Notes under the pieces: generated by a model
What the model was told of the DNA's origin: nothing
Databases searched by the model: none
Seen by the model: only the letters and a program-made list of their open reading frames with translations
NCBI RefSeq assembly: GCF_003790525.1
Contig: NZ_CP033635.1
DNA length: 64,000 bases
Direction: 5' to 3' (one strand)
Source: Escherichia coli
Lineage (GTDB): Bacteria > Pseudomonadota > Gammaproteobacteria > Enterobacterales > Enterobacteriaceae
Shown: one piece after another, positions 50,819 to 51,370 of the stretch
Layout of the letters: the number at the start of each line of letters is the position of its first letter
Position numbering within the stretch: position 1 is the first letter of the stretch
Program-made: the position numbers and the translations under genes

Positions 50819-51370
50819 ATGCACCTGCTTCCTGAACTCGCCAGCCACCATGCGGTGTCAATTCCCGAGCTGCTCGTCAGCCGGGATGAAAGGCAAGCAC
50901 GGCAACACGTCTGGCTCAAGCGCCATCCTGTTCCACTGGTCTCCTTTACCGTGGTTGCGCCTGGGCCGATTAAAGACAGCGAGGTCACACGCCGAATTTT
51001 TAATCATGGCGTGACAGCCTTGCGTGCCTTAGCCGCAAAACAGGGCTGGCAAATTCAGGAGCAGGCTGCACTGGTTTCCGCCAGCGGGCCGGAGGGCATG
51101 TTGAGCATTGCCGCCCCGGCTCGCGACCTCAAGCTCGCCACCATTGAGCTTGAACATAGTCATCCTCTCGGGCGGTTATGGGATATCGATGTCCTGACAC
51201 CCGAAGGCGACATTCTCTCCCGCCGCGATTATTCACTGCCGCCTCGCCGCTGCCTGTTGTGCGAGCAAAGCGCAGCTGTTTGCGCGCGTGGAAAAACCCA
51301 TCAACTGACCGATTTACTCAACCGCATGGAGGCGCTGCTGAACGATGTCGATGCCTGCAACGTCAACTAA
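50819..51370 (+). CDS. citX: apo-citrate lyase phosphoribosyl-dephospho-CoA transferase, 183 aa
   Basis: matches recalled CitX. Confidence 0.93.

What the first reader, a model, noticed from the sequence alone, without database searches (positions are those of the whole stretch)
51345..51370. citX and citG overlap by 26 nt
The cit operon shows successive overlaps (citD/citE by 4 nt, citX/citG by 26 nt), consistent with stoichiometric coupling of the citrate-lyase activation enzymes. The citG start within citX depends on start-codon choice.
Basis: seen in the sequence. Interest (0 to 1): 0.15.

Follow-up and report, generated by a model that had tools for sequence, protein, structure and literature searches.

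The report
Conserved citX–citG 26-nt gene overlap
The start of the E. coli citG gene really does lie 26 bases inside the end of citX; this is already annotated, and related bacteria keep a similar overlap, so it is not a start-codon error.

Summary
The window is the E. coli SMS-3-5 citCDEFXGT operon. citX (50819-51370) and citG (51345-52223) overlap by 26 nt, exactly as RefSeq annotates; citD/citE overlap by ATGA (48364-48367).

The overlap does not come from a wrong start choice. The CitG conserved domain begins near residue 21. The only in-frame ATG/GTG/TTG codons upstream of it are ATG 51345 and ATG 51351, and both lie inside citX. ATG 51345 is conserved across enteric genera and has a GGAGG Shine-Dalgarno 12 nt upstream. 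Met29 (51429) would cut into the domain.

In 63 distinct genomic loci with adjacent citX and citG (almost all Proteobacteria):
- 61 overlap by 14-32 nt and one by 62 nt;
- one is an in-frame fusion;
- none is non-overlapping;
- every overlap has the same reading-frame phase.

CitX-CitG fusion proteins are common in other taxa. I found no general RNA structure hiding the ribosome-binding site.

Translational or stoichiometric coupling is plausible but untested. Published work says coupling weakens as overlaps lengthen.

The depth of conservation and the Shine-Dalgarno built into CitX codons are a small extra finding.

The parts
50819..51370 (+). citX, citrate lyase holo-ACP synthase (apo-citrate lyase phosphoribosyl-dephospho-CoA transferase), 183 aa
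   Evidence: ORF. NF002383 at 265 bits and TIGR03124 over residues 13-175. Pfam PF03802 over residues 13-175. Matches PDB 7dcm chain A at E=1.7e-120. RefSeq CDS.
51345..52223 (+). citG, triphosphoribosyl-dephospho-CoA synthase, 292 aa, in the +1 frame relative to citX
   Evidence: ORF. NF007503 at 644 bits over 1-292 and TIGR03125 from residue 21. Pfam PF01874 over residues 26-290, model positions 5-284. RefSeq CDS.
51345..51370 (+). 26-nt dual-coding overlap: the last letters of CitX D176, then V177-N183 and the stop, read also as CitG M1-T8 plus part of K9
   Evidence: Among Escherichia, Citrobacter and Salmonella, substitutions here fall mostly on citG-frame third positions (47/18/166 at positions 1/2/3). 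Upstream of the ATG they follow the citX frame (63/105/24).
51328..51332 (+). Shine-Dalgarno GGAGG for citG, made from CitX codons M170-E171-A172 (ATG GAG GCG); 12 nt from ATG 51345
   Evidence: Anti-SD duplex of -9.3 kcal/mol. The motif is kept in 13 enteric taxa. The Glu codon at this site is GAG in 48 loci and GAA in 9, against 278 GAG and 307 GAA elsewhere in citX.
51345..51347 (+). Most likely citG start codon (ATG; AT from CitX Asp176 GAT, G from Val177 GTC)
   Evidence: Conserved at 36 codons before the PKPG motif in Escherichia, Citrobacter, Salmonella, Hafnia and Edwardsiella. Best Shine-Dalgarno of the three candidates.
51351..51353 (+). Alternative citG start (Met3), giving a 20-nt overlap
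   Evidence: In-frame ATG with an anti-SD duplex of only -1.5 kcal/mol; GGAGG is 18 nt away. The position is Ile in Citrobacter, Salmonella and Hafnia and differs again in Edwardsiella.
51339..51341 (+). TGA in the citG frame; it closes the frame two codons upstream of the start
   Evidence: the citG-frame translation shows '*T' immediately before MSMP.
51429..51431 (+). Met29 codon, the only in-frame start candidate downstream of the citX stop; rejected as the start
   Evidence: Weak Shine-Dalgarno, -4.2 kcal/mol. It is an internal residue conserved in at least 90% of orthologs. Starting here removes Pfam model positions 1-7 and the conserved W-R-A stretch.
48364..48367 (+). ATGA overlap of the citD stop and the citE start
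46998..53736 (+). citCDEFXGT operon; spacings between successive genes are +14, -4, +10, +3, -26 and +49 nt

Best explanation
[quoted passage not shown] Its ribosome-binding site is built into citX coding sequence: the Shine-Dalgarno GGAGG is spelled by CitX codons Met170-Glu171-Ala172, and the ATG by Asp176 (GAT) plus the first G of the next codon. The overlapped stretch encodes only the poorly conserved 7-residue C-terminal tail of CitX and the poorly conserved first 8-9 residues of CitG. Dual coding therefore costs little. The arrangement is one frame-changing indel (for example a 1-nt deletion or a 2-nt insertion) away from a CitX-CitG fusion, which is the common form in many other bacteria. 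Inferred, not shown: ribosomes finishing citX are released 26 nt downstream of a strong, unstructured citG initiation site. This may give some translational coupling by local re-initiation, alongside independent Shine-Dalgarno-driven initiation, and would keep CitG output tied to CitX output.
For: Geometry and annotation.

Start codon:
- The only in-frame ATG/GTG/TTG codons upstream of the conserved CitG domain are 51345 and 51351, both inside citX. TIGR03125 begins at residue 21 and the Pfam model would begin near residue 22.
- ATG 51345 and GGAGG are conserved in 13 enteric taxa.
- Substitution periodicity switches from the citX frame to the citG frame at the ATG.

Conservation: of 63 distinct adjacent citX-citG loci from gamma-, beta- and alpha-proteobacteria and one Acidobacteria genome, 61 overlap by 14-32 nt, one by 62 nt, one is fused and none is non-overlapping. 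All overlaps equal 2 mod 3. In 39 of 62 there is no other in-frame start between the citX stop and the domain.

Nucleotide-level selection on the Shine-Dalgarno: GAG 48 versus GAA 9 at the Glu171 site, against 278 versus 307 elsewhere in citX. The Serratia loci that use GAA follow it with AGG, which restores an AAGGA-type site. Glu occupies that column in only 5 of 25 fusion proteins.

Fusions: about 26 of the top 150 cluster representatives are 408-488 aa long. All 10 tested carry PF03802 followed by PF01874. One cluster has 553 members.

E. coli population: the 60-nt junction is present at 95% identity or more in 5421 of 5426 complete genomes.
Against: No experimental start-site or N-terminal data for CitG were found; one literature search returned nothing relevant. 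Orthologue annotations are not independent evidence, because PGAP places starts using family models. The GGAGG-to-ATG spacing of 12 nt is longer than optimal. Coupling itself is untested, and the published trend is that coupling efficiency falls as the overlap grows beyond 4 nt (PMC12548453). The 63 loci are related by descent and were chosen as the best CitG matches, so they are almost all Proteobacteria. The counts therefore overstate the number of independent observations. The contrast in Glu171 between overlapping and fused genes is confounded with phylogeny.
Confidence: 0.85

Rival explanations
1. The real start is the second ATG (51351, Met3), so the overlap is 20 nt rather than 26 nt. 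Alternatively, both ATGs are used.
For: It is an in-frame ATG 6 nt downstream. MAFFT aligned the orthologues' N-terminal 'MP' to E. coli Met3-Pro4. In the phage fr and MS2 coat-lysis experiments summarised in the review PMC12548453, a ribosome scanning back from the stop used the start codon nearest to it.
Against: The anti-SD duplex is only -1.5 kcal/mol and GGAGG lies 18 nt away. Nucleotide alignment shows this codon is ATT (Ile) in Citrobacter and Salmonella and ATA (Ile) in Hafnia, whereas ATG 51345 is conserved in all 13 taxa.
Confidence: 0.1
2. The overlap is a start-codon misannotation: CitG starts at Met29 (51429), downstream of the citX stop, and the genes do not overlap.
For: Long same-strand overlaps are often annotation errors (general knowledge). 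Met29 is conserved in at least 90% of orthologs. Residues 1-20 of CitG are poorly conserved. A protein starting at Met29 still scores 279.5 bits against the Pfam CitG model.
Against: Starting at Met29 removes Pfam model positions 1-7 and TIGR03125 positions 3-10, together with the conserved Y..L(A/G)WRA stretch. Its Shine-Dalgarno is weak, -4.2 kcal/mol. Several species have no start codon at that position at all, for example L013, L023, L026, L067 and L076. In fusion proteins the position is an internal Leu. Inside the overlap, substitutions follow the citG frame. 39 of 62 loci have no usable start after the citX stop.
Confidence: 0.03
3. The overlap is a site of programmed +1 ribosomal frameshifting that makes a CitX-CitG fusion protein in E. 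coli, mimicking the fused gene of other bacteria.
For: citG is in the +1 frame. The citG frame is open from 51342, so a shift anywhere in 51342-51367 would give a fusion of about 468 aa, similar in length to natural fusions of 408-488 aa.
Against: By inspection, AAC GAT GTC GAT GCC TGC AAC GTC AAC TAA contains no recognisable +1 slippery motif and no Shine-Dalgarno-like stimulator at the spacing seen in prfB. The overlap sequence is not conserved between genera beyond what the two reading frames require. citG has its own conserved ATG and Shine-Dalgarno, which a frameshift mechanism would not need.
Confidence: 0.02
4. Coupling works by RNA unfolding: the citG ribosome-binding site is locked in a hairpin that only a ribosome translating the end of citX can open.
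For: In some relatives the Shine-Dalgarno pairs with a complementary stretch just past the citX stop. Salmonella diarizonae has AUGGAGGCG paired with CGCCUCCAU (z=-2.0). Citrobacter and Edwardsiella anguillarum have SD-to-ATG regions less accessible than shuffled controls.
Against: The E. coli junction folds no better than shuffled sequence (z=-0.25 and +1.2). Its SD-to-ATG accessibility equals the shuffled controls (0.38 against 0.38). Across 59 loci there is no trend: mean 0.42 against 0.43, Wilcoxon p=0.95.
Confidence: 0.1

Closest known systems
Annotated E. coli citX/citG junction (RefSeq/PGAP; K-12 citCDEFXGT operon)
   Same: The coordinates, protein lengths (183 and 292 aa) and 26-nt overlap are identical in SMS-3-5 and a K-12-like strain. 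The junction is present in 5421 of 5426 complete E. coli genomes.
   Different: Nothing differs; the finding restates the existing annotation. What this analysis adds is evidence that the annotated start is right and that the overlap is conserved well beyond E. coli.
CitXG bifunctional fusion proteins (holo-ACP synthase / triphosphoribosyl-dephospho-CoA synthase)
   Same: The domain order is the same, CitX then CitG, and the linker is short. The E. coli genes spliced at the ATG align end to end with 25 fusion proteins. The implied enzyme chemistry is the same.
   Different: In E. coli the two reading frames differ by one nucleotide and CitX ends at its own TAA, so two separate polypeptides are made. 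The fusions found here come mostly from other taxa, such as Stomatobaculum (Lachnospiraceae), Actinomycetes and an Acidobacteria genome.
Translationally coupled co-directional gene pairs with ATGA (-4) or TAATG/TGATG (-1) junctions, such as citD/citE in this operon
   Same: The genes share a strand and an operon, the downstream start lies at or before the upstream stop, and the products act together.
   Different: The overlap is 26 nt (14-32 nt in relatives) rather than 1 or 4 nt. It carries a full Shine-Dalgarno inside the upstream gene. According to the review, coupling efficiency falls in this range of spacing (PMC12548453).
Phage fr / MS2 coat-lysis gene overlap (-38 / -50 nt), the classical case of re-initiation upstream of a stop codon
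   Same: The downstream start lies tens of nucleotides upstream of the upstream gene's stop. The scanning-back model would apply (PMC12548453).
   Different: The phage lysis start has a poor ribosome-binding site and depends on termination, whereas citG has a strong Shine-Dalgarno. Dependence on citX translation has not been tested.

Membership tests
CitG, triphosphoribosyl-dephospho-CoA synthase (NF007503 / TIGR03125 / PF01874) | Full-length match above the curated cut-off | tested here: met
   NF007503 scores 644.5 bits against a cut-off of 477, covering 1-292 of 292. TIGR03125 scores 361.9 against 272.3. PF01874 scores 284 bits.
CitX, citrate lyase holo-ACP synthase (TIGR03124 / PF03802) | Match above the curated cut-off, and identity with the solved E. 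coli protein | tested here: met
   TIGR03124 scores 203.6 bits against a cut-off of 105.25. PDB 7dcm_A matches at E=1.7e-120 over residues 1-183.
Genuine co-directional gene overlap (not an annotation artefact) | No usable in-frame start downstream of the upstream gene's stop that keeps the conserved domain intact | tested here: met
   The only candidates are 51345, 51351 and 51429. The domain starts near residue 21.
Genuine co-directional gene overlap (not an annotation artefact) | Overlap and phase conserved in orthologous loci | tested here: met
   62 of 63 loci overlap, all with length equal to 2 mod 3, and one is fused.
Genuine co-directional gene overlap (not an annotation artefact) | Coding signature of the downstream frame inside the overlap | tested here: met
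   Pairwise differences at citG codon positions 1/2/3 are 47/18/166 inside the overlap and 63/105/24 just upstream.
Translationally coupled gene pair | Translation of the downstream gene depends on translation of the upstream gene | not testable with these tools
   This needs reporter fusions with and without a premature stop in citX. Only the permissive geometry and the Shine-Dalgarno are shown here.
Translationally coupled gene pair (RNA-unfolding type) | Downstream ribosome-binding site sequestered in secondary structure | tested here: not met
   E. coli z-scores are -0.25 and +1.2. Accessibility is no lower than in shuffled controls across 59 loci, p=0.95.
CitXG fusion gene | A single open reading frame spanning both domains | tested here: not met
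   The frames differ by +1. TAA at 51368-51370 ends CitX, and TGA at 51339-51341 closes the citG frame upstream.
Programmed +1 ribosomal frameshift site | Slippery or hungry codon with a stimulatory element, conserved among relatives | tested here: not met
   Inspection of 51342-51370 and of the orthologous junctions shows no conserved shift motif. The test was inspection only; no fusion-product data exist.

The most novel reading that the evidence does not exclude
The 14-32-nt overlap in a fixed phase, with a ribosome-binding site written into CitX codons, could be a selected expression device conserved across Proteobacteria rather than a frozen accident. It would set the CitG:CitX ratio by combining occlusion and re-initiation at an unusually long negative spacing. 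It would also act as a one-step evolutionary switch between separate and fused CitX-CitG enzymes.
Probability: 0.2. Interest if true: 0.35.

Novelty: already known. Interest (0 to 1): 0.15.

Why it matters
For E. coli annotation it changes nothing; it confirms that the citG start inside citX is correct. The wider survey gives a clean, checkable example of a longer-than-usual gene overlap (14-32 nt) kept across bacterial classes. The downstream gene's Shine-Dalgarno and start codon constrain the upstream gene's codon choices (GAG for Glu171, GAT for Asp176). The same gene pair also exists as a fusion one frame-changing indel away. That makes it a convenient natural test case for how coupling behaves at long negative spacings, but it does not open a new question.

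Tried and rejected
- Met29 as the true start was rejected on domain truncation, a weak Shine-Dalgarno, absence of a start there in several species, and frame periodicity.
- An RNA hairpin sequestering the ribosome-binding site was tested by folding E. coli and 11 relatives and by an accessibility-versus-shuffle test on 59 loci. There is no general signal; only a Citrobacter/Edwardsiella subset shows it.
- Programmed frameshifting found no motif on inspection.
- My first automatic pass reported a 182-nt overlap in L011 and no overlap start in L024 and L057. These were artefacts of extending from tblastn hit ends that ran through a stop codon. On re-analysis they overlap by 14, 17 and 62 nt.
- The MAFFT protein alignment suggested that E. 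coli Met3 matches the orthologous start. The nucleotide alignment showed that Met1 is the homologous codon.
- Literature: Schneider et al. 2002 (PMC134981) is not held. No paper discussing the citX/citG overlap or a mapped CitG start was found.
- No solved CitG structure was found by sequence search.
- A CitX word-index protein search returned only close relatives and no fusions. The exhaustive representative search was needed to find the fusions.

Full report
**Identity of the region.** The window matches E. coli SMS-3-5 (NC_010498.1) at 100% identity over the queried stretch 50700-52300. The finding lies in the citCDEFXGT operon on the + strand:
- citC 46998-48056
- citD 48071-48367
- citE 48364-49272
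- citF 49283-50815
- citX 50819-51370
- citG 51345-52223
- citT 52273-53736

Each product scores above the curated cut-off of its NCBIfam model. RefSeq annotates the same coordinates. Spacings between successive genes are +14, -4, +10, +3, -26 and +49 nt.

**Check of the observation.** citX ends with TAA at 51368-51370. The citG ORF opens with ATG at 51345, so the two share 51345-51370, which is 26 nt. citG is in the +1 frame relative to citX. citD and citE share ATGA at 48364-48367. RefSeq gives the same 26-nt overlap in SMS-3-5 and in a K-12-like strain. A 60-nt piece spanning the junction is present at 95% identity or more in 5421 of 5426 complete E. coli genomes.

**Is the start codon right?** The citG frame is closed by TGA at 51339-51341, so no start can lie further upstream. 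The in-frame ATG/GTG/TTG codons before the invariant PKPGLVD motif are only three: ATG 51345, ATG 51351 and ATG 51429, which is Met29.

The conserved CitG domain starts before Met29. TIGR03125 aligns from residue 21. The Pfam model aligns from residue 26 at model position 5, so it would begin near residue 22. A protein starting at Met29 loses model positions 1-7. The stretch Y..L(A/G)WRA just before Met29 is conserved in orthologs and in fusion proteins. Whichever upstream ATG is used, the start is therefore inside citX and the overlap is at least 20 nt.

Of the two upstream ATGs, 51345 has GGAGG (51328-51332) 12 nt upstream, with an anti-SD duplex of -9.3 kcal/mol. ATG 51351 scores only -1.5 kcal/mol. 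A nucleotide alignment of 13 Escherichia, Citrobacter, Salmonella, Hafnia and Edwardsiella sequences shows that ATG 51345 is conserved in all of them. Codon 51351 is Ile in Citrobacter, Salmonella and Hafnia and differs again in Edwardsiella. Many of these taxa, and some E. coli strains such as L004, have an extra ATG one codon further upstream.

Among ten Escherichia, Citrobacter and Salmonella sequences, pairwise differences just upstream of the ATG fall mostly on the citX third position. Counted at citG codon positions 1/2/3 they are 63/105/24. Inside the overlap they fall mostly on the citG third position, 47/18/166. The coding signature therefore switches to the citG frame at the ATG.

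**Conservation beyond E. coli.** A scan of one genome per species returned 80 loci encoding CitG relatives. In 63 distinct loci a citX homolog sits immediately upstream on the same strand. After I corrected an artefact in my first pass, the results are:

| Junction type | Loci |
|---|---|
| Overlap of 14-32 nt | 61 |
| Overlap of 62 nt | 1 |
| In-frame CitX-CitG fusion (L039, an Acidobacteria genome from a metagenome) | 1 |
| Non-overlapping | 0 |

The 14-32-nt overlaps break down as 14 nt in 4 loci, 17 in 2, 20 in 11, 23 in 13, 26 in 12, 29 in 14 and 32 in 5. Every overlap equals 2 mod 3, so the phase is always the same. In 39 of 62 loci there is no other in-frame start between the citX stop and the domain.

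The loci include Enterobacterales, Aeromonas, Vibrio, Rhodoferax, Rubrivivax, Rhodocyclales, Azospirillum, Bradyrhizobium and Mesorhizobium, with CitX identity to E. coli as low as 36%. These loci are related by descent and were chosen as the best CitG matches. The counts show long persistence, not 62 independent origins.

**How the junction is built.** The Shine-Dalgarno is spelled by CitX codons Met170-Glu171-Ala172 (ATG GAG GCG). The start codon is spelled by Asp176 (GAT) plus the first G of Val177.
- Across the loci, the equivalent CitX residue is Glu in 57 of 60. Its codon is GAG in 48 and GAA in 9, while other Glu codons in the same citX genes split 278 GAG to 307 GAA.
- The Serratia loci that use GAA follow it with AGG, which restores an AAGGA-type site.
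- In 25 CitX-CitG fusion proteins, which need no internal ribosome-binding site, that column is Glu in only 5.

This points to nucleotide-level selection on citX codons by the citG ribosome-binding site, although the contrast is confounded with taxonomy. Both family models leave the overlapped stretch outside the conserved cores: CitX models end at residue 175 and CitG models start near residue 21. Dual coding there is therefore cheap.

**Relation to fusions.** An exhaustive search with CitX found about 26 proteins of 408-488 aa among the best 150 cluster representatives, each with CitX at the N-terminus. All ten that I scanned carry PF03802 followed by PF01874, separated by a linker of roughly 7-25 residues. 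One cluster has 553 members and includes a Stomatobaculum longum protein; another comes from Actinomycetes. E. coli CitX 1-176 joined to CitG aligns end to end with these fusions. The overlapping and fused states differ by a single frame-changing indel in the junction, for example a 1-nt deletion or a 2-nt insertion. Klebsiella pneumoniae shows the third state, with citX at a separate locus (PMC2735749).

**Mechanism.** The tools show an accessible, strong ribosome-binding site for citG inside the end of citX. They show no general RNA structure hiding it.
- The E. coli junction folds no better than shuffled sequence: z=-0.25 for 131 nt and +1.2 for 101 nt.
- Over 59 loci, the predicted unpaired fraction from the Shine-Dalgarno to the ATG equals that of controls with shuffled downstream codons: 0.42 against 0.43, Wilcoxon p=0.95.
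- A Citrobacter/Edwardsiella subset and Salmonella diarizonae do pair the Shine-Dalgarno with a complementary segment just past the citX stop.

Coupling by re-initiation is an inference. The review PMC12548453 states that coupling is most efficient at -4 to +3 nt and that longer overlaps reduce it more than equivalent spacers do. It also notes that phage coat-lysis pairs re-initiate 38-50 nt upstream of a stop. The most likely picture is Shine-Dalgarno-driven initiation at 51345, with some contribution from ribosomes released at the citX stop. The claim of stoichiometric coupling remains untested. The fusions show that a 1:1 ratio is workable, not that it is required.

**Verdict.** The deep conservation of the overlap and its phase, and the ribosome-binding site embedded in CitX codons, are a modest addition. 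I found no paper describing them in the held library. Interest is low.

Noticed in passing
L039:1-1087: A contig from an Acidobacteriaceae metagenome-assembled genome carries citX and citG as one in-frame ORF. The CitX C-terminal motif GRLWDLDV...RRCLVCE...IEKKVH runs straight into the CitG PKPG core. It is the only fusion among the 63 adjacent pairs.
   Followed up: partly
L010:2482-2535; L006-L009 around 2483-2545; L016: In Salmonella diarizonae the citG Shine-Dalgarno AUGGAGGCG has a perfect 9-nt complement, CGCCUCCAU, just after the citX stop. Citrobacter and Edwardsiella anguillarum show similar pairing, and their SD-to-ATG regions are less accessible than shuffled controls. E. coli lacks this feature.
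   Followed up: partly
L004:2498-2526 (E. coli SCPM-O-B-8794): Some E. coli strains carry AATGATGCC instead of AACGATGTC. This adds an ATG one codon upstream, giving a 29-nt overlap and a 9-nt spacing from the Shine-Dalgarno, as in Citrobacter and Salmonella. It also changes CitX Val177 to Ala.
   Followed up: no
window 52224-52272: The citG-citT spacer is 49 nt in SMS-3-5 and 50 nt in the K-12-like strain examined. Most of the sampled E. coli matches are likewise one base longer over the query.
   Followed up: no
L057:2380-2480 (Entomohabitans teleogrylli, second cit locus): This is an outlier with a 62-nt citX/citG overlap in the same phase. Its ATG has a strong Shine-Dalgarno (GGGAGG).
   Followed up: no
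L034, L037, L038, L040-L043, L045, L047, L049-L054, L066, L070: These CitG-family genes have no detectable citX immediately upstream (Gilliamella, Klebsiella and others). The Klebsiella pneumoniae case fits the published separate citX locus. Some of the others may be the malonate-pathway paralog MdcB.
   Followed up: no
window 51335: Most E. coli genomes differ from SMS-3-5 at one or more positions within the 60-nt junction. In the K-12-like strain examined the difference is GCG to GCA at CitX Ala172, a synonymous change next to the Shine-Dalgarno.
   Followed up: no
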